DNA of 64,000 bases from a phage: the sequence record PZ445431.1; one strand, given 5' to 3'. The translations under genes and the position numbers were made by a program. The notes below the pieces were generated by a model. That model searched no databases. It was not told the origin of the DNA and worked only from the letters and a program-made list of their open reading frames with translations. Below are positions 10,365-64,000 of the stretch, in pieces (the stretch's first letter is position 1; each line of letters begins with the position of its first letter).

Positions 10365-10368
10365 TTCA

Positions 10369-10394
10369 AATAGCCCTTCGGGGCTATTATATTT
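10369..10394 (+). terminator. rho-independent terminator
   Basis: TAGCCC-TTCG-GGGCTA hairpin followed by T-rich tract. Confidence 0.7.
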
Positions 10395-10403
10395 AAATTT
10401 CAT

Positions 10404-10432
10404 TTGCTTACTGAGTGAAATTCAAATATAAT
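10404..10432 (+). promoter_or_regulatory. T5-type early promoter
   Basis: TTGCTT 10404-10409, TATAAT 10427-10432. Confidence 0.65.
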
Positions 10433-10462
10433 ATACTTCTAATTTGACAGAAGGATTTAATA

Positions 10463-25855: not shown

Positions 25856-25917
25856 TCTAACGGTTAGGATACTCCCCTGTCACGGGAGAGGTAGGGTTTC
25901 GATTACCCTTAGTACCG
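25846..25917 (+). tRNA. tRNA-Asp (anticodon GUC)
   Basis: Perfect acceptor GGTACTA/TAGTACC, anticodon arm CTCCC-CTGTCAC-GGGAG, T-arm AGGGT-TTCGATT-ACCCT, encoded CCA; 5' end overlaps the HNH gene stop. Confidence 0.75.
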
Positions 25918-25926
25918 CCAAATTAT

Positions 25927-26000
25927 ACATCCATAGCTCAATTGGTTAGAGCTACCGCCTCTTAAGCGGTAGGTTCTAGGTTCAAGTCCTTCATTGGAGA
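25927..26000 (+). tRNA. tRNA-Lys-like (anticodon CUU); acceptor/T stems imperfect
   Basis: Canonical D-arm GCTCAATTGGTTAGAGC and anticodon arm ACCGC-CTCTTAA-GCGGT; acceptor pairing poor by eye. Confidence 0.4.
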
Positions 26001-27615: not shown

Positions 27616-27688
27616 GGGCGAATAGTGTCAGCGGGAGCACACCAGACTTGCAAGTCTGGTAGGGAGGGTTCGAGTCTCTCTTTGTCCA
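27616..27688 (+). tRNA. tRNA-like gene with non-canonical anticodon loop (6 or 8 nt around TTGCAA)
   Basis: Acceptor GGGCGAA/TTTGTCC (two G-U), D-stem GTGT/ACAC, stem CCAGAC/GTCTGG, T-arm GAGGG-TTCGAGT-CTCTC, encoded CCA. Confidence 0.45.
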
Positions 27689-27706
27689 CCAAATTAAAAA
27701 GAATGC

Positions 27707-27780
27707 GCGCGATTGACGGAATAGGTATACGTGTCAGCCTTAGAAGTTGAATTTTGAGGGTTCGAATCCCTTGTCGCGCA
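27707..27780 (+). tRNA. tRNA, anticodon UAG by eye (Leu-type anticodon on a short-variable-arm body)
   Basis: Perfect acceptor GCGCGAT/GTCGCGC, anticodon arm TCAGC-CTTAGAA-GTTGA, T-arm GAGGG-TTCGAAT-CCCTT, A73, encoded CCA. Confidence 0.55.
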
Positions 27781-42088: not shown

Positions 42089-42686
42089 TGCGTGTTAAAT
42101 TCTGGTCGGATTTGCACTTAGACCACCCTGGAACTCTTCGCTTCCGTCCGTGGTTTAAGAATATGAAAGAACATGATGAATATATCCTAGATACTTTGTC
42201 CAAGCACATTGGCAAGCGTACTAAGCTCGTCTTGCTAGGGGATATTGCCGTGGGGCGTGAAGGGTTGGCTAAATTAAAGTCGGTTATCCACAATGTGCCT
42301 AACCAGTTAATCATGGGCAACCACGATGCTGAACGTCAGGGTCTGCATATTAAAGATCTTGTAGACGTTTATGATGATATTCAGGCTCTAGGTAAGCAAA
42401 CAGGTGGTGGCAAGAAGTTTTGGCTGTCACACTGTCACACTGTCCATTGCACGAAGCAGAACTTCGTGGTAAGCTAAACATTCACGGACATGTGCACACC
42501 AATTCTGTGCGCGACCCACGTTATATCAACATCTCTTTTGAGATGAGTAAGACTCCTATTCCTCTAGAAGATATTGTATCTGGCAAGTTCACAAGCTATG
42601 ATAGAGTAGTTAACTGCACTACTGGTGAAGTACTCCAAATCGATGAAGATGTGGCAGCAGTATTGAGGGGAGATATCAATGTTTGA
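42088..42686 (+). pseudogene. calcineurin-like metallophosphoesterase interrupted by a frameshift (8 bp tandem duplication)
   Basis: ORFs 42088..42477 (DLHLDH, GDIAVG, GNHD) and 42420..42686 (HGHVH) are two halves of one phosphoesterase; frames switch at CTGTCACA CTGTCACA (42424-42439); removing one copy restores ...FWLSHCPLHEAELRG... Confidence 0.65.
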
Positions 42687-47079: not shown

Positions 47080-47685
47080 ATGTTTACACAACAAACCATT
47101 AAAGTAGTTGCAGATCATGAACTCGACACATGGGATTACAGCTTTAAAGATCTGACTGCTACAGTACAGTTTAAATCTATGCAACTGTCGTTTTTGCACA
47201 TTGATCTTCAGGCTTGCAAAGAGTTTCAGGCTAAGCTCATGAATGCTCGTAAGATCTTTGGCACAGCTCGCATCCCGGCTGATAATCTGATTAATGCACT
47301 GATCGATGCAGGATACAAACTCGTGAAGACTGAAGTGAACCGCCCGAGTACTACAACTATTCCTCGTAATGACCCTTGGCATATTACTGCACTAACTAAT
47401 TCTGATAAAAGATTAATGTCGGATATGCACAATGTTCCGTGTGGTGGCGTGGTAAGCAATACGCAATCATATAAATTTGGGGAAACATCTAGCGTAGACG
47501 AGTGGAATAAAGCTGGCGTTGCAATGATGGGCTTTGCAAAAGATCGCGGAGCACAAGAAGACTCCGGAGTTTCTAGGAACTCATATACTATCCGTTTGAG
47601 CAATCCTAGAAAAGAGGGAGAGCTTGAAGAAATGTTAACGAAAGTATTCGAAGCTATTGATGCAGATAAAGCTAGAGGTCGTTAA
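47080..47685 (+). CDS. hypothetical protein (201 aa)
   Basis: ORF track; antisense ORFs judged spurious. Confidence 0.55.
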   Translation: MFTQQTIKVVADHELDTWDYSFKDLTATVQFKSMQLSFLHIDLQACKEFQAKLMNARKIFGTARIPADNLINALIDAGYKLVKTEVNRPSTTTIPRNDPWHITALTNSDKRLMSDMHNVPCGGVVSNTQSYKFGETSSVDEWNKAGVAMMGFAKDRGAQEDSGVSRNSYTIRLSNPRKEGELEEMLTKVFEAIDADKARGR

Positions 47686-49436: not shown

Positions 49437-49463
49437 TAAAAATTTAAAAGTAACGAAATCTGC

Positions 49464-49493
49464 TTGACATTCGTGAGAATAATGTGTTATAAT
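49464..49493 (+). promoter_or_regulatory. near-consensus sigma70 promoter (TTGACA-N17/18-TATAAT) with no ORF downstream
   Basis: TTGACA at 49464-49469, TTATAAT at 49487-49493; differs from the TTGCTT early promoter class. Confidence 0.5.
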
Positions 49494-49779
49494 AATCTCA
49501 TAGATTAAAAACATCAACTTGTTTTTACCTCTAGGCCGTAGATTTACATCATTCCTCGTAGGAAAACACTTGATGACGGTTCTGCTTGCAGGTTCTCGTC
49601 AATTGTTCTTCCTCCCCGAGACTCAGGAGGATGTATCAAATCGCGCGCGCCTAGAGGGGCTAACTCTCATGAAATGGGGGTATATTAACTTTTAAATAAC
49701 TAAAAATATTTAAAGGCAATATTTATGTTCAAGATGATACACCTGTTGCCGCTCATCTGCTAGGATGGCACAACACTTT

Positions 49780-49960
49780 CTTCTAGGCTCCTAAGTTTCT
49801 AGGAATAGTTAAGCACTAACTCTAGAGTTTACACTAAACTTTAAATCTGTTTCTCACACATTCTAGGGCAGTTTCTCTCCAACGTTACATATCCTAGGGC
49901 GGTTTCCTATACAGGGCGGTTATAGGGAGGGCGGTTATTTCTAGGAGACATTTTTTGAAA
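49780..49960. repeat. short direct repeats (TTTCTAGG x4-5, GGGCGGTT x3)
   Basis: CTTCTAGG, TTTCTAGG, CTAGGGCGGTT, CAGGGCGGTT, GGGAGGGCGGTT read directly. Confidence 0.8.
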
Positions 49961-49979
49961 ACACATTTCTGGAAATTAC

Positions 49980-50580
49980 TGTCGGATTTGCACATTACAT
50001 TTCTAGAAATTTATGGTCGGATTTGCACATTGATAGGAGTCTCCAAAGTTTTTAGGAACACTGAAAATAGCAGCATTATTTCGGGCCGAAGGCCCATATT
50101 TGCCTGAGTTTTTAGAGCCACAGGAATTTTCACTTGTCAAGCGATTTTGCCCCATTTTGCTAATAAAATTTCGCTTTATCTCCCCTAATCTCAATTCTAG
50201 CCAAAACATCCCGCATTATCCTCAAAAATGCAGCAAACCGGTGCTAAAGCACCATCACCGCTGCTCCTTCCGTAGTTCCTCCCAAAATCTCATCGGATTC
50301 GCACTTCTCCCCAAACTCACACAATCACACACCCTCTCATCGAAGTCACAAAAATCTTGTCGGATTTGCACACCTTAACACTTGTCGGATTTGCACATAC
50401 TCTAGTAAACCCAGCTGGATTGCATCGCAGTTGCGGATTGCTGGAGTTTTTAGGAAAATTCATTGTCGGATTTGCACACTATAAAAATTTTTCGGGTAGG
50501 ATTTGCACATTACCAAAAATTGTCGGATTCGCACATACACGCCAGCACGTAACCCATGGAGCAAATGTCGGATTTGCACA
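49980..50580. repeat. iteron array: about 9 direct copies of TGTCGGATTTGCACA (minor variants)
   Basis: Copies at about 49980, 50016, 50291, 50359, 50383, 50464, 50496, 50521, 50566, all same orientation, irregular spacing. Confidence 0.9.
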
Positions 50581-50599
50581 AAAGCGCAGGGCAATTTGC

Positions 50600-50755
50600 C
50601 CTGCCTGCCGAAATGCGAATGATAATGAGAATGATTCGCATTTGAGAAGTTGAATGCGAATGAGAACAGTTATCATTTGACTACCGGAATACGAATGAGA
50701 ATGATTTGCATTTAGGAAGGGAAACGCTAATAATAATGAGAATGACTCGCATTTA
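50600..50755. repeat. second iteron family AATGAGAATGA(T/C)T(C/T)GCATTT (3 full copies plus partial), each embedding short AATGCGAAT/ATTCGCATT inverted motifs
   Basis: Copies at about 50621, 50693, 50733 plus GCGAATGAGAACAG at 50664. Confidence 0.85.
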
Positions 50756-50786
50756 CAAAGCGAAGTGAGAAACACTGTTATTTAAG

Positions 50787-50856
50787 TTATCCACAGGTTT
50801 ATTAACAGCACGATCTGACTTGACAAAATCCTAGTGATTTTGAGGCGTTATCCACA
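50787..50856 (+). promoter_or_regulatory. two perfect DnaA boxes (TTATCCACA) in direct orientation
   Basis: TTATCCACA at 50787-50795 and 50848-50856. Confidence 0.8.
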
Positions 50857-50894
50857 GACTTATCAACAGGTTATTCTACTGTATATTTATACAG
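50848..50894. repeat. left arm of about 47 bp inverted repeat (partner 54593-54639)
   Basis: TTATCCACAGACTTATCAACAGGTTATTCTACTGTATATTTATACAG versus reverse complement of 54593-54639, about 90% identical. Confidence 0.8.
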
Positions 50895-50926
50895 TATTCC
50901 TGCGTAGTGAATAACTCTAATATAGC

Positions 50927-50957
50927 TCTAAAACGCTCTCAAACGCGTTCTAACGCG
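50927..50957. repeat. direct repeat copy 1 (TCTAAAACGCTCTCAAACGCGTTCTAACGCG); partner at 55019-55050
   Basis: Same orientation, about 27/31 matches to 55019-55050. Confidence 0.8.
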
Positions 50958-51041
50958 TTTATTTTTGGGGGAGGTATTTTAATAAGGGGAAATTTGAGGA
51001 AGGCCAGAAAAGACGGGGCCGATAGTTGCGCCCCGTTATTA

Positions 51042-51236
51042 TTAGTCTGGTAGTCGATGTGTGATCTTTTCGCTTTCGCCGTAGGAGTCTACCAAATGTT
51101 GATAGTAACCATCGTTATCATAAATCACTTTATCATAATCGCCACGCTCCACCGCTTGCCGATTTTCCAGCGTATCAGGCACAAAGAAAGTATCAACGGT
51201 AACAGTAGTTTTAGTTACAACAATTTTATCACTCAT
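51042..51236 (-). CDS. hypothetical protein (64 aa), pre-early-region leftward operon
   Basis: ORF in leftward gene string. Confidence 0.45.
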   Translation of the reverse strand: MSDKIVVTKTTVTVDTFFVPDTLENRQAVERGDYDKVIYDNDGYYQHLVDSYGESEKITHRLPD

Positions 51237-51366
51237 AACGCCATTGCTCCTAGAATGAGAATGATTATCAATATCATTGTGAAGCCATTACCAAATCGTA
51301 AACGCTGGGAATGTTTCCCAGCGGTATTATTAGATTTATGGCTTTGTGTTTTTCGCCACCAGCTAT

Positions 51367-51579
51367 TCACGGTTTTAAATTCTCTATAGTTAATTTTGCG
51401 CGAATAGTGATTCCATATAATTCGCCTCCCTTGTTTCTTACATCAGGTAGCCAGTCCCACAATTCATGGTATCCGCTTAAAATTCCTAGCGATGCAAGAT
51501 TAGCAATAAAACCGGCTATAGTAACCGCTTCCAGTGAAATAGTTACACGATTATTAATAACTAAAGTAAACTTTTTCAT
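51367..51579 (-). CDS. hypothetical protein (70 aa)
   Basis: ATGA-coupled to upstream gene. Confidence 0.5.
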   Translation of the reverse strand: MKKFTLVINNRVTISLEAVTIAGFIANLASLGILSGYHELWDWLPDVRNKGGELYGITIRAKLTIENLKP

Positions 51580-51920
51580 TGCGCCACCTTTCGAAACGCT
51601 GTTTCGATACTTTCAGCGGTTGATTGAATATACGCGCCTTTCATAATTAGACGCTCCGTACATACTTTGCGGAAAATGAAAATGAATTCATTTTCATTTT
51701 CCGCTATTAACGCTTCCCCCATAACCTGAACGTCACAAGACCCAAAAGTTAAAAATTGAAACGCTAGTTCACGGGCGACAACGGCAGAAATTTTATAATG
51801 TGCTTTGCCCTCATAGATATTAACCACGCCTTTATAAACAGGGGAAAGCTGATTTAAATAGTTTGCTAATAATGCCGGACGGCAATTAGTTACAAAGCGA
51901 TTGCCCTCATAAATAACCAT
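51576..51920 (-). CDS. hypothetical protein (114 aa)
   Basis: ORF in leftward gene string. Confidence 0.55.
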   Translation of the reverse strand: MVIYEGNRFVTNCRPALLANYLNQLSPVYKGVVNIYEGKAHYKISAVVARELAFQFLTFGSCDVQVMGEALIAENENEFIFIFRKVCTERLIMKGAYIQSTAESIETAFRKVAQ

Positions 51921-52026
51921 TAAATGATCCTCGCATCACGGATAACCATAATCACTAGCGTGATCAACATTGCAGCACTAGACACGCCACAAACAAAAGT
52001 TAGCATTTTAACAATTGCCCCTTCCA

Positions 52027-52239
52027 TTATAACACCCCACGAAAAGCAGCGTAAAAAGTAGCAAAGTGTTTAACCGTTTCGGCTATCAAATTGCCGCGCT
52101 TGTCAAATTTCTTTTCTGTAACACGGAAAGCGTTTTTGTTGCGTGCTACATATTCTATTTTACAATCTGGACGCTCGAAGGTGTTAACATCCACCAGCTT
52201 AAAACCTTTAGAACGGGCAAGGGAAACATTTTTTAACAT
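52027..52239 (-). CDS. hypothetical basic protein (70 aa)
   Basis: ORF in leftward gene string. Confidence 0.5.
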   Translation of the reverse strand: MLKNVSLARSKGFKLVDVNTFERPDCKIEYVARNKNAFRVTEKKFDKRGNLIAETVKHFATFYAAFRGVL

Positions 52240-52245
52240 TTTTAT

Positions 52246-52395
52246 TCCCCTTTACCAGTCATACAGCCCAACAAGTAAGAAAACCCCGCGATACCTGCTC
52301 CAATAATAACCACGTGAACGCCGAAAGCTATTACAAACAGCGATAAAATAGCGCCCAAGATACTAGCCAGAATAGATCGAAAAATAACCATTTTA
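52246..52395 (-). CDS. possible small membrane protein (49 aa)
   Basis: Minus-strand ATG at 52395 followed by two hydrophobic segments; not in track. Confidence 0.35.
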
Positions 52396-52437
52396 TTAGC
52401 TCCTAGAAATTAGGGGATAATATATCCCCTTTAATAA

Positions 52438-52665
52438 TTACATTAAAACAATTTTTACCGCTTGCTTTTTGGTGCAGTGGTTAGTTTTCAATTCATCCAA
52501 CAAAAAGCCCGCCGTTTGCTGGTCAATCTTGTCATTGTCATAAAGTTCCTGAATGGTAACATAAGTTTTACCTATGCCGAACTCAGAAACCATAACGCTG
52601 ACAATAGCGGGAACGGATACCCATTCCATACCGTTAAAAATTGCAGAAGATGATGAATGTACCAT
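52438..52665 (-). CDS. hypothetical protein (75 aa)
   Basis: ORF in leftward gene string. Confidence 0.5.
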   Translation of the reverse strand: MVHSSSSAIFNGMEWVSVPAIVSVMVSEFGIGKTYVTIQELYDNDKIDQQTAGFLLDELKTNHCTKKQAVKIVLM

Positions 52666-52772
52666 TTTAACGCCTCCTAGAAATCAGGGAAAATTTTCAA
52701 TCCACCGTTTCGGTGTAAAGGCATTATAACAAAAAAGGCCACCATAATAGGCGACCTTTACAAAACTTTACA

Positions 52773-53294
52773 TTAGACTATTTCTAATGCTTCCACACCG
52801 AAACAGCGTTTTAGTTCTTTCTGTAAAACTGCATATTCATCCCAACGGGAATTATCAGGAATATAAACAAGCTGTTTTAATCGATTTGCATATAATAACG
52901 CCTTGTTACCAATTATTTCCGCGCCACCGTGTTTAATAATTAGTTTCATAACGGTATTAATAGGATCGCCGCCATTTACATAAGTACCGGACTTACTCAA
53001 TTGATAATGATAAATACTCGCATATACATTATCATTTTCAATCCATTCCCCTGTTTCTTCATCTTCTTCCCCATCGCTACCGAAACGAGAAGCATTATCA
53101 TATGCGTGTTCGTTTGCGAAAGCGTCCAGATCACAGCCAGCGGGAACAAAATGTTCCTCCGTCCAGCCCTCCCCGCAATAGCCAGTATGACAATCAACTA
53201 AAACGATCATATCGTGCTTAGCTTCATTCACACTTTCTAGTGAAAATCCATACTTGCAAACACTATCACGCTCAATAATTAATTTACTAAACAT
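52773..53294 (-). CDS. hypothetical acidic protein (173 aa)
   Basis: Cys/His cluster (CHTGYCGEGW...GC) followed by strongly acidic tract GSDGEEDEETGEWIEND. Confidence 0.6.
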   Translation of the reverse strand: MFSKLIIERDSVCKYGFSLESVNEAKHDMIVLVDCHTGYCGEGWTEEHFVPAGCDLDAFANEHAYDNASRFGSDGEEDEETGEWIENDNVYASIYHYQLSKSGTYVNGGDPINTVMKLIIKHGGAEIIGNKALLYANRLKQLVYIPDNSRWDEYAVLQKELKRCFGVEALEIV

Positions 53295-53347
53295 AATTAG
53301 TCTCCTAACTAAAAGGGAAAGCGGGGATTATTCCCCACTAGTAATTA

Positions 53348-54343
53348 TTATTCACTTTCGGTGTTAGTGGTAAAGGTAGAAATGTCAATACCTTTTACCA
53401 TTTCGTCGATCATTTCAGCAATATTGAAACTCTGTACCATTTCCAACATTGCCGCTTCCATTGCCGCGCCTGCTACCGCTTTCGCTTTCTGATTAGTCGG
53501 GGCGTACTGGTCAACTGCTACGCTTAACAGGTTAGCGATCACTATACGACCAATCGGCGTATCGATATAACCTTTAATCATAAACGGCGCTTTTTTCGCC
53601 GCTACTTTCGTGATTTGAGTTAATGCAATTTTACCCGCTTCCAGTTTTGCAGCATTTACAACAGCGGATTTATTAGCAGCAACGATAGAAGATACTTTAG
53701 TCATGATATTTCCTTTATTTTCAGTAGTTTGCGCATTTGCGCTTGAAGTTTGAGAGTTTACAGCCTGTTTTGCTACGTTGTCAACTGGTTTTAGTGTAAA
53801 TCCAGCGTTTGCAACGTTTGATTCATTCCCATACTCTAAATAATCGTTAGGGATCAACATGTTACCGCTAGCGCGTTCAAAACACAATACGCCAGTTGTT
53901 TCGATTGCGTCACTATCCGCACGTTTAATGGCGCTTGTCAATTCGCCCCAAATGCTAGACAGTAAATCTTCTACATCTCTGGAATTAATACCATTTACGC
54001 GAGTAGCGAAAACCATTTCTTTTTCTTGTACATTGTAACCACGGGCAATATAGCTTTTTTCGTCGTGACCTACAATGATAAAATCAATATCGCTTCCCCG
54101 CTGATTTCGTATGATGTGATAGTCACGGTTGTAAAGCACTAGAACGCGGCTAGGGTCTAGTAATAGCGTGAAATCATCGACTGAATAATGAGTATCATTA
54201 TTATCTAAAATATCATCGTGAATCTTTTCAACCATTGCCACCGTATGTTGTAGGCTTGCTGGACTTGATCCGTCTAGCAGGTTGCGCAAAATACCCTTAA
54301 TAATAGTGGCGTTTGCTGGTACTGCAATTCTTACAGTAGACAT
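53348..54343 (-). CDS. hypothetical protein (331 aa), first gene of leftward pre-early operon
   Basis: Longest ORF of the block; GGAGAC RBS; Ala/Lys-rich C-terminal half. Confidence 0.6.
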   Translation of the reverse strand: MSTVRIAVPANATIIKGILRNLLDGSSPASLQHTVAMVEKIHDDILDNNDTHYSVDDFTLLLDPSRVLVLYNRDYHIIRNQRGSDIDFIIVGHDEKSYIARGYNVQEKEMVFATRVNGINSRDVEDLLSSIWGELTSAIKRADSDAIETTGVLCFERASGNMLIPNDYLEYGNESNVANAGFTLKPVDNVAKQAVNSQTSSANAQTTENKGNIMTKVSSIVAANKSAVVNAAKLEAGKIALTQITKVAAKKAPFMIKGYIDTPIGRIVIANLLSVAVDQYAPTNQKAKAVAGAAMEAAMLEMVQSFNIAEMIDEMVKGIDISTFTTNTESE

Positions 54344-54592
54344 TTCTTTGTCTCCCTCGTTAATCGGTGAGTGAATGATATAGATAATTGTTCGCTATGG
54401 GCAAGAAAAAAGAAAAGGTTTTTTATTCCTTGCCTAACGCTTGTTTTTATGATACCCGCGTGTTTTCTATTTCTAGCTCTCTGTAAGCGTACACAAGGCT
54501 TTATTATAATAAGGGTAGCAGTGAGAAAACGCCGTGTAGCGTGTTCTAGACCTCTTAAATTTGATTGCGGTTGTTACTGCTACCATTCTACC

Positions 54593-54639
54593 CTGTATAT
54601 TTATACAGTAGGATAACCTGTATATAAGTCTGTGGATAA
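54593..54639. repeat. right arm of about 47 bp inverted repeat (partner 50848-50894), containing a DnaA box
   Basis: CTGTATATTTATACAGTAGGATAACCTGTATATAAGTCTGTGGATAA. Confidence 0.8.
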
Positions 54640-54688
54640 GTCGCCAAATCGTCGCCTATTACGTCAAGTTATTTTGTGCTGTGGATAA
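54631..54688 (-). promoter_or_regulatory. two perfect DnaA boxes (TGTGGATAA on + strand = TTATCCACA on - strand)
   Basis: TGTGGATAA at 54631-54639 and 54680-54688; partial boxes at about 54611 and 54965. Confidence 0.8.
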
Positions 54689-55018
54689 CTTTGGGGATAA
54701 GTTAAATGATAGTGGTTCTCACTTAGCCCGATAGTTTCTCATAGTTATTATTTCTCTTTAATTTATAAGTATATTATATAATATGAAATAGTTAGTTGGC
54801 TAATAGGTTTTTAGAGTATTAATAGTCTGCTAATAATAACGCATGTTACAATCCACCAGCGTGATTATCATCCTAGCGACTATTAGCGTGCTAATGACCT
54901 GATACACGTCCAGACTTATTTGTCAATGAAAAATAATAGCAGAAAATACTTTTTTGAAAAATCAAGTGGATAACTCATTAAATTTCATTTTTGCTTTTTG
55001 TATAAGTTATTAACAGGG

Positions 55019-55050
55019 TCTAAAACGCTCTGTAACGCATTCTAAGCGCC
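55019..55050. repeat. direct repeat copy 2 (TCTAAAACGCTCTGTAACGCATTCTAAGCGCC)
   Basis: Matches 50927-50957 in the same orientation. Confidence 0.8.
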
Positions 55051-55351
55051 TCAAAGGAAAAGATAGGCAATCATAAGGAGTACACCGAGAAAACCTCACC
55101 ACTAGCGAAATAAGTTTTGTCAAGTACCCCAAAGCAGATATAAATGAAAAAATTACTTGCTAAAATGGTTGTTTTGATGTTATTCGCGCGCCCGTTTCAT
55201 TTAATTTTAGGCAGTCGCTGGACGTGGTGCGGTGGCGTTTGTCCTTACGTTTCTTTACAAAAATAAGGTTGCGCCCTTCTCGGTATTCTCCTATTATTTA
55301 TCACGTAGGGCGGCAATGACGAACTACACGGCGGAGAAGTTTACCACCGCG

Positions 55352-55388
55352 CTCTTTAAAAACTAGGGAACATCTTAAAGCCTATCGG
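55352..55388. repeat. left arm of 37 bp near-perfect inverted repeat
   Basis: CTCTTTAAAAACTAGGGAACATCTTAAAGCCTATCGG; reverse complement matches 55795-55831 at 36/37. Confidence 0.9.
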
Positions 55389-55421
55389 CGGTAAACTTAT
55401 ATAATATAAGGAATCGACGAT

Positions 55422-55580
55422 ATGACAACAATATTTAACGATCATCCAGCTACCCACGACACGATCGAAAAAATCGAACAATGGGTAAAGACTGCAAATG
55501 AATACTATGCTAATCATTCGGAAGCGGTAATAATCTGCAATGATGGGAATGGTTTATATGCTTTGGAGGATCTCAAATGA
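55422..55580 (+). CDS. hypothetical small protein (52 aa) inside the IR-flanked cassette
   Basis: ATG after TATATAATATAAGGAATCGACGAT; ATGA-coupled to the next ORF; not in track. Confidence 0.45.
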   Translation: MTTIFNDHPATHDTIEKIEQWVKTANEYYANHSEAVIICNDGNGLYALEDLK

Positions 55581-55786
55581 AACAAACGCTTTTGATCACT
55601 GGCAAGCCTATCAAGTCACTTGATAGCAGAACAAAAAATTTGTTGATAGTAGCGCAAAAATCGGTAAAATACCGATTCAAGCAGTACAAGAAAGGAAGGC
55701 AGCAAGGTCTGGAAATGGTGTGGCGTAATATAATGATTGATTTATATAACTCCCATCAAATCGAAAAAAGTTTAAAAAACGCTTGA
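55577..55786 (+). CDS. hypothetical basic protein (69 aa) inside the IR-flanked cassette
   Basis: ORF track; Lys/Arg-rich. Confidence 0.5.
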   Translation: MKQTLLITGKPIKSLDSRTKNLLIVAQKSVKYRFKQYKKGRQQGLEMVWRNIMIDLYNSHQIEKSLKNA

Positions 55787-55794
55787 TACGCTAG

Positions 55795-55831
55795 CCGATA
55801 GGTTTTAAGATGTTCCCTAGTTTTTAAAGAG
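55795..55831. repeat. right arm of 37 bp near-perfect inverted repeat
   Basis: CCGATAGGTTTTAAGATGTTCCCTAGTTTTTAAAGAG. Confidence 0.9.
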
Positions 55832-56017
55832 CGATAACTTGATAAAATTTGACGGTCGGCACTTACCATAATGTGCCCCGCCCCCTAACTGGGATATAGC
55901 GGCCCGCGTGGAGTTCTTTAAATTTATTATACTGGCGAGCGGATTATAATCTAATAGCGTTTCAACGTATCGAGGCGCTATTGTGGAATAATCCCCCAAT
56001 AAACCGGAGTATTAAAA

Positions 56018-56269
56018 ATGCAAAACGTTATTACCGCGCCGAAAGTAGGTCAATCTGTTTTCATTCCTTTTGTAACTAAAACGGATGAATTAACCGGAAA
56101 AGCCGAACGTATTAAAGGTGTGGCGCTTGATCCTTTCGATAAAATCGAAGCGGTATACGCGGAAACGGAACGGAGTAACAACGGCAAGCCAATTTATAAC
56201 GTTCGCGTTAAATCCGGCGACGTTGTAAAGATCATTCAGAAAGATGATAAATGGCAAGCTATTAGCTAA
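56018..56269 (+). CDS. hypothetical protein (83 aa)
   Basis: ORF with GGAG RBS. Confidence 0.55.
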   Translation: MQNVITAPKVGQSVFIPFVTKTDELTGKAERIKGVALDPFDKIEAVYAETERSNNGKPIYNVRVKSGDVVKIIQKDDKWQAIS

Positions 56270-56368
56270 TTAGTGCTAACTTTATATTCCCCTGAAATAT
56301 GGGGAATATATGGATTAACATTAGTTAATCATAATCCCTTAATTAATAATTGAATGGAGTATTAAATT

Positions 56369-56785
56369 ATGTCTAACGTTAAAACCGAAAAAGCCGCAAA
56401 ATTCGCATGGAATGAAGAAAACACTGAAAAAGCCGTTTCTATGTATTCTGAAATGGTCGCTAAAAGCGGAATTGAATTTGCTAACACTGACGGCTTAAAA
56501 GAAATCGCCGCCGCCGTTGGCGCGGCTTCTCCCGTGTCTGTTCGCTCAAAATTGACCAGCGCAAAAGCCTACCAGAAAAGCGATAAACCTCGCAAAGTTG
56601 GCGGTGGTAGCTCAATCCGTAAAGCTCACTATGTGCGCGTCATTGCTAAACATGCCATTGATAGCGGCATTGTAAAAGACGCCGACGATCTGGCAAGTCT
56701 GGAAAGCGCAAAATTGGAAACGCTGGACGCCGTAGCGCAATTGTTAGGCGTAGCGGAGGAAGTAAAACAGGCCGCAGGCGAATAA
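56369..56785 (+). CDS. hypothetical protein (138 aa)
   Basis: ORF with GGAG RBS. Confidence 0.55.
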   Translation: MSNVKTEKAAKFAWNEENTEKAVSMYSEMVAKSGIEFANTDGLKEIAAAVGAASPVSVRSKLTSAKAYQKSDKPRKVGGGSSIRKAHYVRVIAKHAIDSGIVKDADDLASLESAKLETLDAVAQLLGVAEEVKQAAGE

Positions 56786-56834
56786 ATTTAATCAGTGGGG
56801 AATAATCCCCACTATCCCTTAAAGGAGAATAATT

Positions 56835-57059
56835 TTGATCTTTTATCCTAGCGAAGCGTTTATTTTGGGCTTATTTATAGTTGCCGCCGCTTTTATTCTG
56901 AATTATACGCGGTCAATTCTGGCAATAATCGGAATTAATAACGTTTACGCCGCAAATAATTTCCGCAAAAACGCGAATATTCAAAAATATATGTCAATCA
57001 TCTTTCTTACAATTGGCATTGTATTTGGCTTTTGTTCTAGTTTAACGCCGATTAATTAA
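56835..57059 (+). CDS. hypothetical membrane protein (74 aa)
   Basis: Two hydrophobic helices; AAGGAGAA RBS. Confidence 0.5.
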   Translation: MIFYPSEAFILGLFIVAAAFILNYTRSILAIIGINNVYAANNFRKNANIQKYMSIIFLTIGIVFGFCSSLTPIN

Positions 57060-57171
57060 ATGTTGCAAATTATAACGCCTTTAAAAGTCCTCACTTCAGG
57101 CAAGGCGTTATATTTGGCAATATTGCCAGCTTTAAAATGTTTTAAATCCCTTTAATGGAGTTACTTAACTT

Positions 57172-58836
57172 ATGAATATTTCCGCAGAAAAACAGTCTCA
57201 GATCAATAAACTTGCCGCCGACTTTAATTTCTACGGTAAGCGTTTACGCGCTACCAAACTTGAAGTTTGCGACGATATTTCAAAAGCTGTATATGATACG
57301 CCGAAACATTCAACGGCAATTTGTGACTGGTTGGAAGCAAATAAGCCAGCGAAACCGAAGGCAGCGAAAGCTGTAAAAGCCATTAAAAACGATGATCGCC
57401 CCGAAGCGGCGGGGATCGTTTCTAGCACGGTTGAGCAATGGGAAGTTAAATCCGGTCGCCGTTTTATTCTAACGTCGATTCAAAATAATACTTTCCCGCA
57501 CAAAAACTTTTTGAAAGCGCTTGAGCAATACGCTAGTTATTATGGCGCTGAATTGCTTGTTAGCAAATTCATTTACAACAAAAACGGATTTCAGAATGGG
57601 GAAGGCGGCGAAAAAATCAAATATGATCCCGCATTTGATAAATATATTTGTGAGAAAAACGTATTTTTAAATAATCGCCGCTTTGCTTTCATGGCTGAAA
57701 TTAACGTATTACCAACGGCAGATTATCCGCTTTCAGGATTCGCAGAAACTGCCACCGCTTTAAATATTGAAGGTCTGGCAATTGGTCACGCAAAAATTAC
57801 CGCTGAAAGTGTGCCAGCGTTAAAAGGTGAAGTAGTGCGCCGTATGTACTCCACCGGAACGGCTACGCTTAAAAACTACATTCAGCAGAAAGCAGGTCAA
57901 AAAGCTGAGGCGCTGCATAATTACGGCGCTTTGCTGGTAGAATTTGACGACGACGGCGAATTTTTTGTTCGCCAGCTTGAGACAATGGATGAAAGCGGGA
58001 TGTTTTATGATTTGAATATTTGCGCTATACCAACCGGATGTTTCAAAACATCTGATCATGTTTTAGGTTTGCAATATGGCGATATTCACGCCGAAAAATT
58101 AGATGATGATTGCGCTGTTGCATCATGGGTGGGCGAAAATAGCTTGCTTGATATTCTTAAACCAAAATATCAGTTTATCCATGATGTGCATGATTTTACA
58201 TCGCGTAACCATCATAATCGCGCCTCTGGTGTATTCCTAGCTAAACAGTACGCCGCCGGACGTGATAAAGTTATTGATGATCTTATCGATACTGGACGTG
58301 TATTAGAATCAATGGAGCGCGATTTTTCTCAAACAATCATCGTGGAATCCAATCATGATTTGGCGTTATCCCGTTGGCTTGACGATCGCAACGCTAATAT
58401 TAAAGACGATCCCGCAAACGCCGAACTGTATCACAGCCTAAACGCCGCTATTTATGCAGCTATTGCAAAACAAGATGATACCTTTAACGTATTGGATTAC
58501 GCGCTTAGAAACGTTGCAGGTTGCGAATTTAACGCTATTTTTCTGACTACTGACCAATCTTTCAAGATTGCAGGAATTGAATGCGGCGTACACGGTCACA
58601 ATGGCATTAACGGCAGTCGGGGCAATCCTAAGCAGTTTAAGAAACTTGGACGCCTCAACACTGGCCATACTCACACGGCGAGCATTTACGGTGGCGTGTA
58701 TACCGCTGGCGTTGCTGGTAGTCTCGATATGGGTTACAACGTGGGCGCGTCAAGCTGGACGCAAACGCATTTAATTACCTATGCAAACGGGCAACGTACT
58801 TTGATTGATTTCAAAAACGGTAAATTCTTTGCATAG
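57172..58836 (+). CDS. A1: A1-like pre-early protein (metallophosphoesterase-type)
   Basis: 554 aa with GDIHAE, ESNHD, GVHGHNG, NTGHTHT phosphoesterase-like motifs; size and position next to a dmp-like gene match T5 A1. Confidence 0.6.
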   Translation: MNISAEKQSQINKLAADFNFYGKRLRATKLEVCDDISKAVYDTPKHSTAICDWLEANKPAKPKAAKAVKAIKNDDRPEAAGIVSSTVEQWEVKSGRRFILTSIQNNTFPHKNFLKALEQYASYYGAELLVSKFIYNKNGFQNGEGGEKIKYDPAFDKYICEKNVFLNNRRFAFMAEINVLPTADYPLSGFAETATALNIEGLAIGHAKITAESVPALKGEVVRRMYSTGTATLKNYIQQKAGQKAEALHNYGALLVEFDDDGEFFVRQLETMDESGMFYDLNICAIPTGCFKTSDHVLGLQYGDIHAEKLDDDCAVASWVGENSLLDILKPKYQFIHDVHDFTSRNHHNRASGVFLAKQYAAGRDKVIDDLIDTGRVLESMERDFSQTIIVESNHDLALSRWLDDRNANIKDDPANAELYHSLNAAIYAAIAKQDDTFNVLDYALRNVAGCEFNAIFLTTDQSFKIAGIECGVHGHNGINGSRGNPKQFKKLGRLNTGHTHTASIYGGVYTAGVAGSLDMGYNVGASSWTQTHLITYANGQRTLIDFKNGKFFA

Positions 58837-58888
58837 TTAAATTTAATCGGCGGTTGAAATATACCGCCATTAATAAAAGGTTTATTAA

Positions 58889-59146
58889 ATGAATATTGTA
58901 TTACCTAAAACGCTGGATAAAAAGCAGTATATAACGCCGGATGATATGGAGTGCGGCAAGGTATACCAATTCGATTATATGTTGGCTAGTCCGACAAATA
59001 CAGGTTGTATTATTGCAGTTGATACCCGCGATAATGACGTATTAACGTTTAATGATTATTCTGACTTTATGGAATGGTTAGATGATCAAAGTATCACTAA
59101 TAATGGCGAATTAACGCCCTATCAATTAACGCTCACAATTAAATAG
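58889..59146 (+). CDS. hypothetical acidic protein (85 aa)
   Basis: ORF track. Confidence 0.5.
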   Translation: MNIVLPKTLDKKQYITPDDMECGKVYQFDYMLASPTNTGCIIAVDTRDNDVLTFNDYSDFMEWLDDQSITNNGELTPYQLTLTIK

Positions 59147-59184
59147 TTTAATCCCGTAAATATAAATAATCAGGAGTTATAAAC

Positions 59185-59577
59185 ATGAAACAACAAAATA
59201 TTCCTTTTGACGCTGCAAAATCTTCCATCGTTCTAGTTTATTCTAATGGTGAACGTTATCACGTCGAGGCGGGGCAAGTTAATTTTGATTTGCTGAATTA
59301 TAACGACGCTTTGCAGGTTACTACCTTTGCTTATGATACCGGCAAAGTGGCAAGCCATACGAAAGCAAAAGGCGTTTACGCTGATACTTTGACAGTGCAA
59401 ACAATTATTATTGATGCGCTTAAATCCGGTCTAGCGTTTGCAGTTGTTAAGCCGTGTCCGGTCTGCAATCCAGAAGCTAGCGCGATGGTTTACATTTGCG
59501 CGGGAATCCGTTCTAGTGTATCCGGTGAAGATCTTAGCTTTATTGGTGACGCGCTAGCGTACGGCCTCACTAATTAA
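59185..59577 (+). CDS. hypothetical pre-early protein (130 aa), possible A2 counterpart
   Basis: Position downstream of A1 and size; no motif-level support. Confidence 0.3.
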   Translation: MKQQNIPFDAAKSSIVLVYSNGERYHVEAGQVNFDLLNYNDALQVTTFAYDTGKVASHTKAKGVYADTLTVQTIIIDALKSGLAFAVVKPCPVCNPEASAMVYICAGIRSSVSGEDLSFIGDALAYGLTN

Positions 59578-59665
59578 TAGTTAATTGAACATTGCCAGCT
59601 AATCTAATATAATTAGCTGGCAAGATTGAATTAACCCTAAACCCCTTAAATGGAGAATGTAGCAA

Positions 59666-60400
59666 ATGAATCAAGTTAATATGAATATTACCCGCGCTTT
59701 CCCGCATATTTCCCGCGTTATGATTTGGGATTTAGACGGGACAATCATTAATTCAATGCACCGTGTAGCGCCTTGTTTTGATGATAACGGAAATTTAAAT
59801 TTAAATAAGTATTCCCGCGAAGCCTGCAAACATGATTTAATTATGCAGGATTCTTTATTGCCGTTGGTTGAATATATGCGCCAATGTATGAATGATGCAA
59901 ATACTTTAAATATTATTTGTACCGCGCGCCTTATGTCTAAAAGCGATTACTTTTATTTGCGTAAACAAGGCTTGCGAGGGCGCGGAAATAGCAATATCCG
60001 CGTATTCTCCCGCGATACATTACACAAATACTTTGAAGCGGATAAGGTTAGCGAAATATACCACAGCAAAGACGCTGTATACAAAAGCTATTACTTTGAA
60101 CTATTTAAACAGCTATATCCGAACGCTGATTTTACGATGATTGATGATCATAAAGGCGTATTATCGGCGGCGGCAAGTGCTGGATTTAAAACGTTGGATG
60201 CTCAAGCCGTTAACGATATCCTATCAATCGGCGTAACATTGATCGGTGAAACCTTTATTGATGAATCGCTTGATGATGATAACGATTATCAATTCCTAGC
60301 CGAACGTTTAAAAATGTGTTGGGAAGGTATGACCGAGGAAGAACGCGCGGAATATAGTACCACTCCGCAACAATTCATTGATAAATTAAAAGTTGCCTAA
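59666..60400 (+). CDS. dmp: 5'-deoxyribonucleotidase (HAD-superfamily phosphatase), Dmp-like
   Basis: 244 aa with HAD motif I MIWDLDGTIIN; size and position match T5 dmp. Confidence 0.65.
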   Translation: MNQVNMNITRAFPHISRVMIWDLDGTIINSMHRVAPCFDDNGNLNLNKYSREACKHDLIMQDSLLPLVEYMRQCMNDANTLNIICTARLMSKSDYFYLRKQGLRGRGNSNIRVFSRDTLHKYFEADKVSEIYHSKDAVYKSYYFELFKQLYPNADFTMIDDHKGVLSAAASAGFKTLDAQAVNDILSIGVTLIGETFIDESLDDDNDYQFLAERLKMCWEGMTEEERAEYSTTPQQFIDKLKVA

Positions 60401-60415
60401 CAATTAAAAATAAAA

Positions 60416-60450
60416 TAGTCACACTGTGTAATGATAACATGGTGTGACTA
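60416..60450 (+). other. strong hairpin (9 bp stem) immediately after the dmp-like gene
   Basis: TAGTCACAC ... GTGTGACTA with 17 nt loop; no T tract. Confidence 0.5.
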
Positions 60451-60563
60451 TTAGCTTGCTAAGTACCGGGGCGGTAATGAGACTCATTCTCATCTAGGGA
60501 ACCTCTGGGCACACCTTCATGTGTAATCTTATGAGATTTCGAGAATTGGTAATTAGCGCTAAC

Positions 60564-60809
60564 TTAGGAGGAACACCGGTCTACCGGCTTGTATCCTGAT
60601 TCTGACATACGAAATCTCCTCCGCGATGCCCGAGATCCATCCGACCACTCTCGCTCAAACTCCTCCCGTTTCTCCGCAAACTTCCGCTCCCTTTCCGAAA
60701 GCTCCCGCGATACTCCCGCAATATATTCACGATGCTTATTAATCGCCCCGAGTGTTCCGAAGATTCCCGCAAGCACCCCGATAATGAAGATAGCCACAAA
60801 ACTAAACAT
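60564..60809 (-). CDS. hypothetical membrane-anchored protein (81 aa)
   Basis: N-terminal TM helix then Arg/Glu-rich tail. Confidence 0.45.
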   Translation of the reverse strand: MFSFVAIFIIGVLAGIFGTLGAINKHREYIAGVSRELSERERKFAEKREEFEREWSDGSRASRRRFRMSESGYKPVDRCSS

Positions 60810-63518: not shown

Positions 63519-64000
63519 ATGGCAAATGATGTATTAGTTCCCGATCTCATGTCTCCCGAAGGCATGGATGTTATTGAAGCCTATTTACAGTGCGGTAGTG
63601 ATGTTCCTGCCGCCGCTCGTAGTCTTGGAATGTCCGAGATTGCATTCCGTGATATAATGAATCGTGGGGAAGTTAAAAACTATCTCAACGATATCTTTAT
63701 GGAAAGTGGCTTCCGTAATCGTGACCGCTTATTCGGAGTTCTTGACGAAGTTATCAAGCGTAAGCTGGAAGAACTTGAAGAAACTGGCATGGGTTCTGAC
63801 CAGGATATCATGGATATTCTCTGGAAGGCGCACAAGATGAAGATGGAAGAAATGAAAATGATGGTAGAACTGGAGAAAGTGAAGGCAGCAGCCCGTACTC
63901 CGGCTAACCAGACTAATATTCAGAATAATATTATTGCTGGAAGTGGTGACGAAAACTATATGAATCTTATTACCGCTCTAGCAGGAGGAGGTAAGAGATA
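63519..64000 (+). CDS. putative terminase small subunit-like protein, partial (3' end beyond window)
   Basis: AGGAGGA RBS; N-terminal helix-turn-helix-like segment ([21 protein letters not shown]) and charged coiled-coil region. Confidence 0.4.

What the first reader, a model, noticed from the sequence alone, without database searches (positions are those of the whole stretch)
49980..50580. Array of about 9 direct iterons TGTCGGATTTGCACA in an ORF-free leader
Nine same-orientation copies of a 15-mer (minor variants such as TGTCGGATTCGCACA, GGTAGGATTTGCACA) within 600 bp, in a 1.5 kb stretch that has only repeat-driven ORFs. It is not a CRISPR array (no regular spacers, repeat too short). The pattern suggests cooperative binding sites for a phage or host DNA-binding protein at the inner boundary of the pre-early region, where T5 has its injection-stop and DnaA-box locus.
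Basis: partly seen in the sequence, partly recalled or inferred. Interest (0 to 1): 0.7.

Follow-up and report, generated by a model that had tools for sequence, protein, structure and literature searches.

The report
T5 iterons flanking the genome end
The repeat array is real, but it is the already-described 'DRD' repeat series of phage T5's injection-stop region, and it flanks a strictly conserved site where the phage genome is cut, so it is most likely a docking array for a phage protein such as the packaging enzyme.

Summary
Eight copies of TGTCGGATTTGCACA (≤2 mismatches) plus one degenerate copy lie on the + strand at 49980-50580, against about 1 match expected by chance.

The window is Escherichia phage TrudiRoth, a T5-like phage. 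The array is the orthologue of the nine 'DRD' direct repeats in T5 'Repeat Region 3' (the injection-stop locus). These are named in the T5 literature but have no assigned function. The feature is therefore already known.

New here:
- The array is bipartite, with 2 copies on one side and 6-7 on the other. It flanks an invariant block, TTTTTA|GAGCCACA, which is the T5/EscoHU1 genome right terminus (window 50114|50115).
- The same architecture occurs in a Vibrio phage whose A1 protein is only 32% identical.
- The iteron sequence changes in a lineage-specific, concerted way, while the neighbouring DnaA boxes stay invariant. This favours a phage-encoded binder.

Best explanation (about 0.42, inferred): a cosB/pac-like recognition array for the small terminase subunit at the packaging-start cut. 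Main rival (about 0.2): binding sites for the essential pre-early protein A2, acting in second-step DNA transfer. No binding has been shown for either.

The parts
49464..49493 (+). Consensus sigma-70 promoter (TTGACA-18-TATAAT, with TG extension) on the unique-sequence side, firing into the array. No ORF lies downstream.
   Evidence: 12/12 hexamer match. An equivalent promoter sits at the same position in Vibrio phage Thalassa (L011 10182-10210) and in T5, EscoHU1 and Erwinia KEY.
49865..49936 (+). Four AGGGC(G/A)GTT repeats at 49865, 49896, 49913 and 49928. These probably correspond to the T5 'DRA' copies. They lie in the most CTAG-dense stretch of the window.
   Evidence: Read from the sequence. 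Conserved in T5 and EscoHU1. CTAG count is 8 in 271 nt, the window maximum.
49980..49994 (+). Iteron copy 1 (exact), in the cluster on the unique side of the terminus.
50015..50029 (+). Iteron copy 2 (GGTCGGATTTGCACA), in the unique-side cluster.
50083..50095 (.). G+C hairpin GGGCC-GAA-GGCCC, 19 bp before the terminus.
   Evidence: Read from the sequence. Conserved in T5 and EscoHU1, with a related hairpin in Erwinia KEY.
50109..50122 (.). Invariant terminus block TTTTTA|GAGCCACA. The predicted genome right terminus, which is also the inner boundary of the terminal repeat, falls at 50114|50115.
   Evidence: The T5 repeat boundary was verified at 10219|10220. The EscoHU1 boundary is at the identical aligned position. 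The block is 100% conserved in 5 lineages. Six full-length T5-like contigs end exactly at |GAGCCACA.
50115..60510 (.). The terminal repeat as carried once in this window (10,396 bp). It holds the pre-early genes A2, A1 and dmp.
   Evidence: The right boundary is set by homology. The left terminus is set by a 60/60 match to the EscoHU1 left end.
50291..50305 (+). Degenerate iteron (CATCGGATTCGCACT), inside the repeat.
   Evidence: family D3
50358..50372 (+). Iteron copy (exact), in the repeat-side cluster.
50383..50397 (+). Iteron copy (exact).
50464..50478 (+). Iteron copy (exact).
50495..50509 (+). Iteron copy (GGTAGGATTTGCACA).
50521..50535 (+). Iteron copy (TGTCGGATTCGCACA).
50566..50580 (+). 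Iteron copy (exact). This is the last of the array.
50584..50591 (+). Nick-site consensus GCGCAGGG. By homology with T5's major 7.9% single-strand interruption, the nick is predicted at 50583|50584.
   Evidence: T5 annotation places the nick at 9748/9749. The 8-mer occurs at homologous sites in T5 and TrudiRoth. AGCGCAGG is invariant in 5 lineages.
50586..50604 (-). Palindrome GCAGGGCAAATTGCCCTGC. It scores as an intrinsic terminator for transcription leaving the pre-early genes.
50610..50771 (.). Four AATGAGAATGATTCGCATT-type repeats (T5 'DRC'), weakly Fur-box-like. They are a neighbouring element, not part of the iteron family.
   Evidence: families D2, D4. The best unit matches the Fur 19-mer at only about 15/19 by eye, and none appears at ≤3 mismatches.
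50787..50896 (+). Two consensus DnaA boxes TTATCCACA (50787, 50848) and a near-perfect LexA box TACTGTATATTTATACAGTA (50877-50896). This is the landmark that follows the array in every lineage examined.

Best explanation
The array is a two-part cluster of same-orientation binding sites for a phage-encoded, sequence-specific DNA-binding protein. It is built around the site where replicated T5-type DNA is cut to make the genome's right end.

The left end of T5 DNA enters the cell first, so it should have been packaged last. The right-end cut should therefore be where packaging starts. I propose that the small terminase subunit binds the iterons on both sides of the invariant block TTTTTA|GAGCCACA. 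In this window that is 2 copies on the side that is not packaged and 6-7 copies within the first roughly 470 bp that are packaged. Binding would position the large subunit for the initiating cut. This is how lambda cosB, P1 pac and SPP1 pacL/pacR work.

Shown here: the array, its bipartite layout, the conserved cut site between the two clusters, its conservation across the family, and the lineage-specific drift of the motif.

Inferred: that a protein binds it, that this protein is the small terminase subunit, and that the cut is the packaging start. The same array in the left terminal repeat lies where first-step DNA transfer halts, so a second role in injection is not excluded.
For: 1. In T5 the verified repeat boundary, 10219|10220, lies in the array's large gap. 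Six copies lie 244-467 bp inside and three lie 86-272 bp outside.
2. EscoHU1's annotated boundary is at the identical aligned position. Six full-length T5-like contigs end exactly at |GAGCCACA, and all other full-length records end elsewhere in the same gap.
3. In a 5-lineage alignment (T5, TrudiRoth, EscoHU1, a Klebsiella phage, an Erwinia phage) the invariant blocks are the iteron cores, the nick site, and the 14-nt terminus block. Most of the rest is poorly conserved.
4. Vibrio phage Thalassa has an A1 protein only 32% identical. It carries 9 copies of GTCGGATTTGCAC in the same orientation: 2 on the unique side, one ending 9 bp from the boundary, and 7 inside the repeat.
5. Vibrio PG07 shows the same '2 copies, 367-bp gap, 3 copies' layout with a variant motif.
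6. The motif varies by lineage: TAGAATCCGCAC, TAGRTTTCGCACAT, and GTCGAATTTCTACTT, where GCAC has become CTAC in all copies. The adjacent DnaA boxes and CTGT-N8-ACAG palindromes are unchanged. This is the pattern expected for a co-evolving phage protein and its site.
7. The array is confined to T5-sized phage genomes and is absent from 5,426 E. coli genomes and 72,556 plasmids.
8. From my own knowledge: terminase recognition repeats flank or abut the initiating cut in lambda, P1 and SPP1; the last DNA packaged is the first ejected; in T7 the right end is formed before the left.
Against: - No binding data exist for any protein.
- The N-terminal, presumably DNA-binding, part of the small terminase subunit is only 36% identical between TrudiRoth and Thalassa, although both have the same 13-mer.
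- The distance from the cut to the nearest iteron is not constant: 9-67 bp in Thalassa against about 85-245 bp in T5-like phages.
- No iterons lie near the other (left) terminus.
- Conserved single or paired iteron-like sites inside the D13 and T5.019 homologues are not explained.
- Some records place the repeat boundary elsewhere. chee130_1 is 180 bp further in. Seafire's PhageTerm call is at the nick site and is probably an artefact.
- The array is equally well placed for a role in the injection stop or restart.
- An essential DNA-binding pre-early protein, A2, has no known target.
Confidence: 0.42

Rival explanations
1. The iterons are the specific target of A2, the essential pre-early DNA-binding protein. 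A2 is made from the first-step DNA. It would bind the copies as they reach the cytoplasm and, with A1, release or ratchet the stalled DNA so that second-step transfer proceeds. Alternatively it could pair the arrays of the left and right repeats.
For: A2 is essential for second-step transfer, binds DNA, and has no known target. The array lies at the mapped first-step stop, about 7.9-8.3% of the T5 genome, inside the region annotated as the injection stop signal. A2 is present in every lineage examined. Its segment S-V-R-S-K-L and the motif (H/S)Y(V/I)R are kept in all lineages with a GCAC-type iteron. They are changed in the Aeromonas lineage (VRQKL) and the Proteus lineage (VRTKL, HVVF), whose repeats differ. 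A phage-encoded binder is favoured by the concerted drift of the motif.
Against: The small terminase subunit shows the same covariation pattern, so the test does not discriminate. An injection role does not explain why the array is split around an invariant cut site, or why copies are kept on the unique side. The A2 model is of low confidence (pLDDT 59) and has no significant structural match. From memory, early biochemistry reported general double-strand DNA binding for A2.
Confidence: 0.2
2. The iterons are sites for a host protein that blocks DNA entry and so form part of the injection stop signal. For example, they could be low-affinity DnaA sites extending the DnaA-box cluster, as in Davison's DnaA model.
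For: The enteric motif contains ATTTGCACA, an 8/9 match to the DnaA box TTWTNCACA, in the same orientation as the nearby consensus boxes. The neighbouring elements are consensus host-factor sites: DnaA boxes and a LexA box. The 13-mer is identical in E. coli and Vibrio harveyi phages.
Against: In Vibrio and Aeromonas phages the iteron departs from the DnaA consensus (GCACC, CTACTT), while true TTATCCACA boxes in the same genomes stay perfect. The conserved left half, GTCGG, is unexplained. Phages of closely related Vibrio hosts carry different variants. Spacing of 25-343 bp does not fit a contiguous DnaA filament. The array has no match in E. coli chromosomes.
Confidence: 0.08
3. The array is a replication origin, or an auxiliary origin. 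It would consist of iterons for a phage initiator such as the UL9-like origin-binding helicase, next to DnaA boxes, and would be activated by transcription from the conserved promoter.
For: Direct repeats beside DnaA boxes, with a strong promoter reading in, resemble plasmid and phage origins. T5 encodes a UL9-like helicase with a predicted HTH motif, and multiple internal origins have been reported.
Against: The cumulative GC-skew minimum is at about 54 kb and the maximum is near 12 kb, next to the array. The literature places the origins near the genome centre. Spacing is irregular, and no initiator gene is adjacent. The invariant cut site between the two clusters is not explained.
Confidence: 0.08
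4. The motif acts in RNA. The promoter at 49464 would make a non-coding transcript carrying nine same-sense copies that sponge an RNA-binding protein, for example CsrA, through GGA loops.
For: All copies are on one strand and downstream of a conserved consensus promoter. Every enteric copy contains GGA. The promoter-proximal leader 49500-50100 folds better than shuffles (z = -3.7).
Against: The array segment itself is not unusually structured (z = -1.4), and copies do not form individual hairpins. GGA is lost in most Vibrio and Aeromonas variants. No Rfam family matches. A hairpin and the genome terminus lie between copies 2 and 3.
Confidence: 0.03

Closest known systems
DRD direct repeats of phage T5 'Repeat Region 3' / injection-stop locus (Heusterspreute 1987; Wang 2005; Davison 2015 and bioRxiv 10.1101/866236)
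   Same: Same motif (reverse complement TGTGCAAATCCGACA), about nine copies, same order of neighbouring elements, same place at the inner end of the terminal repeat. This window's array is the orthologue.
   Different: Nothing essential differs. TrudiRoth has a degenerate extra copy at 50291 and lacks T5's ninth copy (T5 10477). The papers I could read assign no function and do not discuss packaging.
Terminase recognition repeats: lambda cosB (R1-R3), P1 pac (4+3 hexamers flanking the cut), SPP1 pacL/pacR
   Same: Short repeated motifs grouped on both sides of, or next to, the initiating terminase cut, with the larger group on the first-packaged side. Works like: yes, plausibly.
   Different: Binding by the small terminase subunit is untested. 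The repeats are 15 bp, all in one orientation, and up to 245 bp from the cut. T5 makes exact 10-kb direct terminal repeats, not cohesive ends or headful series.
T7 short-repeat arrays SRL/SRR flanking the terminal repeat, and the concatemer-junction pause site (from my own knowledge)
   Same: A phage with direct terminal repeats carries arrays of short direct repeats next to the repeat boundary, and transcription runs towards the junction.
   Different: Unrelated sequences, 7-bp units, a 160-bp repeat, and phage RNA polymerase rather than a sigma-70 promoter. The function of SRL/SRR is itself unsettled.
Replication-origin iterons of plasmids and phages (RK2 oriV, P1 oriR, R6K gamma)
   Same: Same-orientation direct repeats beside DnaA boxes.
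   Different: Irregular spacing, shorter units, no adjacent initiator gene, no skew or literature support for an origin here. The array encloses a genome terminus.

Membership tests
T5 DRD repeats (injection-stop 'Repeat Region 3' of Demerecviridae) | Motif TGTGCAAATCCGACA or its complement | tested here: met
   Five exact copies and three near-exact copies here. The identical motif occurs at T5 9752-10477.
T5 DRD repeats (injection-stop 'Repeat Region 3' of Demerecviridae) | About nine copies, all in one orientation | tested here: met
   Nine copies on the + strand. Nine in T5.
T5 DRD repeats (injection-stop 'Repeat Region 3' of Demerecviridae) | Position at the inner end of the terminal repeat, between the DnaA-box inverted repeats/DRC repeats and the DRA repeats | tested here: met
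   Collinear alignment with T5. DnaA boxes at 50787 and 50848. Repeat boundary at 50114|50115.
Terminase recognition site (cosB / pac type) | Repeated motifs adjacent to or flanking the terminase cut that starts packaging | tested here: met
   Iterons lie on both sides of the verified T5/EscoHU1 terminus and of the Thalassa terminus. That this end is the packaging start is an inference from last-in-first-out.
Terminase recognition site (cosB / pac type) | Specific binding by the small terminase subunit | not testable with these tools
   No structure or family information. The covariation test is uninformative.
Terminase recognition site (cosB / pac type) | The site is sufficient for phage-dependent cutting or packaging of foreign DNA | not testable with these tools
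   No captured copies in plasmids or E. coli chromosomes. This neither supports nor refutes.
Replication-origin iterons | Regularly spaced 17-22 bp repeats bound by an adjacent initiator gene product | tested here: not met
   15-bp units at spacings of 25-343 bp. No initiator gene adjacent.
Replication-origin iterons | Origin signature (skew minimum or mapped origin) | tested here: not met
   Skew minimum at about 54 kb in T5 and maximum near the array. The literature places origins near the centre.
DnaA boxes | 9-mer TTWTNCACA | tested here: not met
   ATTTGCACA matches 8/9. The Vibrio and Aeromonas variants diverge further, while true boxes stay invariant.
CRISPR array | Repeats of 23-50 bp with regular unique spacers | tested here: not met
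   15-bp repeats with spacings of 25 to 343 bp.
Protein-sponge RNA (CsrB type) | GGA motifs presented in hairpin loops of a stable transcript | tested here: not met
   No per-copy hairpins, z = -1.4. GGA is not conserved in other lineages.

The most novel reading that the evidence does not exclude
The iteron array, together with the invariant TTTTTA|GAGCCACA block and the promoter reading into it, is the so far undefined packaging-initiation site of T5-like phages. The same protein-DNA complex, or its footprint on the left repeat, also sets the first-step injection stop. That would explain mechanistically why the first-step DNA and the terminal repeat have almost the same length throughout the Demerecviridae.
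Probability: 0.12. Interest if true: 0.75.

Novelty: already known. Interest (0 to 1): 0.36.

Why it matters
How T5 stops and restarts DNA injection has been open since the 1960s. [quoted passage not shown] How T5 terminase chooses its cut sites is also undescribed in the literature I could search.

This work shows three things. The most conspicuous repeat family of that region brackets the genome terminus. It is conserved from enterobacterial to Vibrio phages. It co-varies by lineage while the host-factor boxes do not. Together these narrow the candidates to a phage protein, either the small terminase subunit or A2, and they give simple binding and mutagenesis tests. There is also a practical point: PhageTerm-type calls in this family can mistake the adjacent nick for the terminus.

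Tried and rejected
- **Nick determinant.** T5's 7.9% nick lies 4 bp from copy 1. However, nick sites share their own 8-mer, CCCTGCGC, at homologous positions. Two major nicks have no iteron nearby, and there is no GCGC beside the D13 iteron pair. Rejected.
- **Covariation to choose between A2 and the small terminase subunit.** Both proteins show the same pattern: conserved in lineages with a GCAC-type iteron, changed in the Aeromonas and Proteus lineages. Uninformative.
- **A2 fold.** The single-sequence model has pLDDT 59, and no structural match has E<2. My impression of a SAP/HeH-type motif was not confirmed. There were no PDB or Pfam hits for A2, and only a sub-threshold HTH hit for the small terminase subunit.
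- **Origin of replication.** GC skew gives no support.
- **RNA-level role.** No Rfam family, and the array segment is not structured.
- **Captured copies in E. coli genomes or plasmids.** None found.
- **Coding potential.** The five small ORFs tested have no Pfam hits and are not conserved between records.
- **Left terminus.** No iterons there.
- **Papers I could not read.** Davison 2015 (PMC4743489) and Bourguignon 1976 (PMC515544) are not held. Statements about them rest on the Davison preprint and on memory.

Full report
**What is there**

- TGTCGGATTTGCACA occurs on the + strand at 49980, 50358, 50383, 50464 and 50566 (exact), at 50015 and 50521 (1 mismatch) and at 50495 (2 mismatches).
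- A ninth, degenerate copy is at 50291-50305.
- With up to 3 mismatches the window holds 13 matches against 1.3 expected, and no shuffle reaches 13.
- Spacing is irregular, from 25 to 276 bp (343 bp if the degenerate copy is left out).
- Between the flanking genes (49437-51041) there are only ORFs of ≤98 aa. The five tested have no Pfam hit, and they are annotated differently in different records.

**Identity**

The stretch is 100% identical to Escherichia phage TrudiRoth (MZ501109; Demerecviridae, Epseptimavirus). It matches 522 phage records, nearly all T5-like.

The window is the reverse of the T5 convention. It carries one copy of the terminal repeat embedded in a circularly permuted sequence. 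It also differs from the GenBank record by a 979-bp indel near window 25.8-26.0 kb.

In T5 (NC_005859) the reverse-complement motif TGTGCAAATCCGACA occurs at 9752, 9798, 9824, 9855, 9936, 9961, 10305, 10340 and 10477. These positions largely fall inside the feature annotated 'injection stop signal'. They are the 'series of nine DRD repeats' of 'Repeat Region 3' described by Davison (bioRxiv 10.1101/866236), following Heusterspreute 1987 and Wang 2005.

That paper assigns them no function. Two 2026 papers still describe the locus only as repeat-rich and mechanistically unexplained. The feature is therefore already known, and its function is not.

**Distribution**

The motif is concentrated here in three genomes.

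| Genome | Motif matches | In the array | Other sites |
|---|---|---|---|
| TrudiRoth | 14 (≤2 mismatches), all on one strand | 8 | isolated or paired |
| T5 | | 9 | 12153 (gene T5.019); tandem pair 78935/78950 (gene D13) |
| Vibrio phage Thalassa | | 9 by repeat-family count | 3, one at the homologous place in its D13 homologue |

The T5 extra sites are conserved in TrudiRoth. The D13 pair reads in frame as VQILQVQIRQ, a coiled-coil segment. These secondary sites are unexplained.

**The array brackets the genome terminus**

I verified that the T5 left and right repeats are identical over 10,219 bp. The right genome end...GTGGCTC|TAAAAAC..., falls in the array's large gap. Six copies lie 244-467 bp inside and three lie 86-272 bp beyond it.

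Other genomes agree:
- EscoHU1's annotated boundary is at the identical aligned position.
- chee130_1's boundary is 180 bp further in, still inside the gap.
- Seafire's PhageTerm boundary is exactly the nick site AG|CGCAGGGC, which is probably a nick artefact.
- Among IMG/VR contigs that contain paired iterons, all are T5-sized or fragments.
- Six full-length contigs end exactly at |GAGCCACA. All other full-length ones end elsewhere within the same gap.

A five-lineage alignment (TrudiRoth, T5, EscoHU1, Klebsiella K7rec15, Erwinia KEY) was then examined. The invariant blocks are each iteron core (TCGGATTYGCACA), the nick site AGCGCAGG, and a 14-nt block TTTTTA|GAGCCACA that contains the terminus. 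Most of the rest is poorly conserved.

By homology the repeat in this window runs from 50115 to 60510. The left end is fixed by a 60/60 match to EscoHU1. Two iterons are on the unique side and seven, including the degenerate copy, are inside the repeat.

**Family-wide conservation**

Vibrio phage Thalassa (Ermolyevavirinae) is only distantly related:

| Protein | Identity to TrudiRoth |
|---|---|
| A1 | 32% |
| Small terminase subunit | 44% |
| A2 | 42% |
| Large terminase subunit | 59% |

Its 7,395-bp repeat boundary has two GTCGGATTTGCAC copies on the unique side, one ending 9 bp from the boundary, and seven copies inside.

The whole layout is collinear with TrudiRoth:
1. A consensus sigma-70 promoter pointing into the array.
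2. A CTAG-rich leader.
3. Two iterons.
4. The terminus.
5. Seven iterons.
6. GCGCAG sites.
7. Lineage-specific short repeats.
8. DnaA boxes and CTGT-N8-ACAG palindromes.

Other lineages carry the following:

| Lineage | Motif | Copies |
|---|---|---|
| Klebsiella K7rec15 | enteric motif | 10 |
| Erwinia KEY | enteric motif | 8 |
| Vibrio PG07 | TAGAATCCGCAC | 2, a 367-bp gap, then 3 |
| Vibrio 70E37.6 | TAGRTTTCGCACAT | about 7 |
| Aeromonas AhSzw-1 | GTCGAATTTCTACTT (GCAC replaced by CTAC in all copies) | about 8 |
| Proteus phage 2 | an unrelated 18-bp-period repeat | at least 7 |

In all of these lineages the DnaA box TTATCCACA and the CTGT-N8-ACAG palindrome are unchanged. Invariant host-factor boxes next to an iteron that drifts in concert within each lineage argue that the iteron is read by a phage-encoded protein. 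The different variants in phages of closely related Vibrio hosts point the same way.

**Mechanism**

The left end of T5 DNA is injected first (established knowledge). By the last-in-first-out rule the right end is packaged first. The cut at TTTTTA|GAGCCACA is therefore inferred to be the packaging-initiation cut.

In this window's orientation packaging would run from 50115 rightwards. The six or seven repeat-side iterons would then lie in the first roughly 470 bp packaged, which is the cosB position. The two unique-side iterons would lie on the unpackaged side.

This bipartite arrangement around a conserved cut site is what lambda cosB, P1 pac (4+3 hexamers) and SPP1 pacL/pacR look like (from my own knowledge). 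I therefore take recognition by the small terminase subunit as the best single explanation, at about 0.42.

This is an inference, and several points count against it:
- No binding has been shown.
- The N-terminal part of the small terminase subunit is only 36% identical between two phages that share the same 13-mer.
- The distance between cut and iterons varies.
- The secondary sites are unexplained.

**Rivals**

The array sits at the first-step stop. A2's SVRSKL and HY(V/I)R segments track the iteron type. But the small terminase subunit tracks it equally, and the A2 model is uninformative.

*A host-factor roadblock, about 0.08.* This includes the idea that ATTTGCACA is a weak DnaA box. It is disfavoured by the lineage-specific drift and by the absence of the array from E. 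coli chromosomes.

*A replication origin, about 0.08.* This lacks support from GC skew, and the literature places origins near the genome centre.

*An RNA-level role, about 0.03.* This is not supported.

The iterons are not the nick determinant.

**Verdict**

It is the known DRD repeat series of the T5 injection-stop/terminal-repeat junction.

The added value of this analysis has four parts: the link to the invariant genome terminus, the conservation of the whole architecture from enterobacterial to Vibrio phages, the evidence for a phage-encoded reader, and concrete tests to decide between the small terminase subunit and A2.

Noticed in passing
window 50877-50896 and 54591-54610: There is a near-perfect LexA (SOS) box, TACTGTATATTTATACAGTA (19/20), and a second copy at 17/20. 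Each sits beside a pair of consensus DnaA boxes (50787, 50848 on +; 54631, 54680 on -), and the two sets are in mirror-image orientation. CTGT-N8-ACAG next to TTATCCACA is present in every Demerecviridae lineage examined (Klebsiella, Erwinia, Proteus, Aeromonas and three Vibrio lineages). The Davison preprint discusses the DnaA boxes but never mentions LexA.
   Followed up: partly
window 49464-49493 and 49500-49660: A perfect-consensus extended sigma-70 promoter has no ORF downstream. It is conserved in position and orientation in T5, EscoHU1, Erwinia KEY and Vibrio phage Thalassa. The first roughly 160 nt of its transcript fold into a long hairpin, and the 601-nt leader has z = -3.7 against shuffles. 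This may be a non-coding RNA, or transcription directed at the genome terminus.
   Followed up: partly
window 50584-50591; TrudiRoth record 87013 and 28078: The T5 single-strand nick sites share an 8-mer, CCCTGCGC (GCGCAGGG on this strand), at homologous positions in T5 and TrudiRoth. Seafire's PhageTerm 'terminal repeat' boundary coincides exactly with this nick. PhageTerm-derived repeat lengths in this family may therefore be about 470 bp short. BF23's 9,743 bp is close to the T5 nick position at 9748/9749.
   Followed up: partly
window 50610-50771: Four AATGAGAATGATTCGCATT-type repeats (T5 'DRC') resemble Fur boxes, about 15/19 to GATAATGATAATCATTATC by eye. A better Fur-like site (17/19) is at 51257-51275. 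There is a weak, non-significant Rfam hit to the Fur-regulated sRNA PrrF over 50577-50722 on the minus strand (E = 0.18). This is suggestive because T5-like phages use iron-regulated receptors, but it is unproven. Vibrio and Aeromonas phages have TCTAGNCG-type repeats at this position instead.
   Followed up: partly
window 47417-47431, 47186-47200, 42104-42118; TrudiRoth record 27687-27716 (outside the window): Iteron-like sites lie inside genes, all on the same strand as the array. One is in the T5.019 homologue and is conserved in T5 at 12153. A tandem pair lies in the D13 (SbcC-like) gene. It is conserved in T5 at 78935/78950 and, as a single site, at the homologous position in Vibrio phage Thalassa. 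The pair encodes VQILQVQIRQ. Their meaning is unknown.
   Followed up: partly
window 49760-50030: This is the highest CTAG density in the window, 8 in 271 nt against 4.7 per kb overall. It overlaps four AGGGCGGTT repeats. The Thalassa leader is also CTAG-rich.
   Followed up: no
window 60451-60570: The left genome terminus is predicted at 60510|60511 from an exact match to EscoHU1. The unique-side flank (ACACCTTCATGTGTAATCTTATGA) is conserved with T5, but the first bases inside the repeat differ completely between T5 and the Epseptimavirus phages. No repeat array accompanies this terminus.
   Followed up: partly
window 25801-26000 and 63519-64000: The window is not collinear with MZ501109. It lacks 979 bp that the record has in the tRNA/homing-endonuclease region. 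It also runs across the record's end into the small terminase gene. The source is therefore a permuted or variant assembly.
   Followed up: partly
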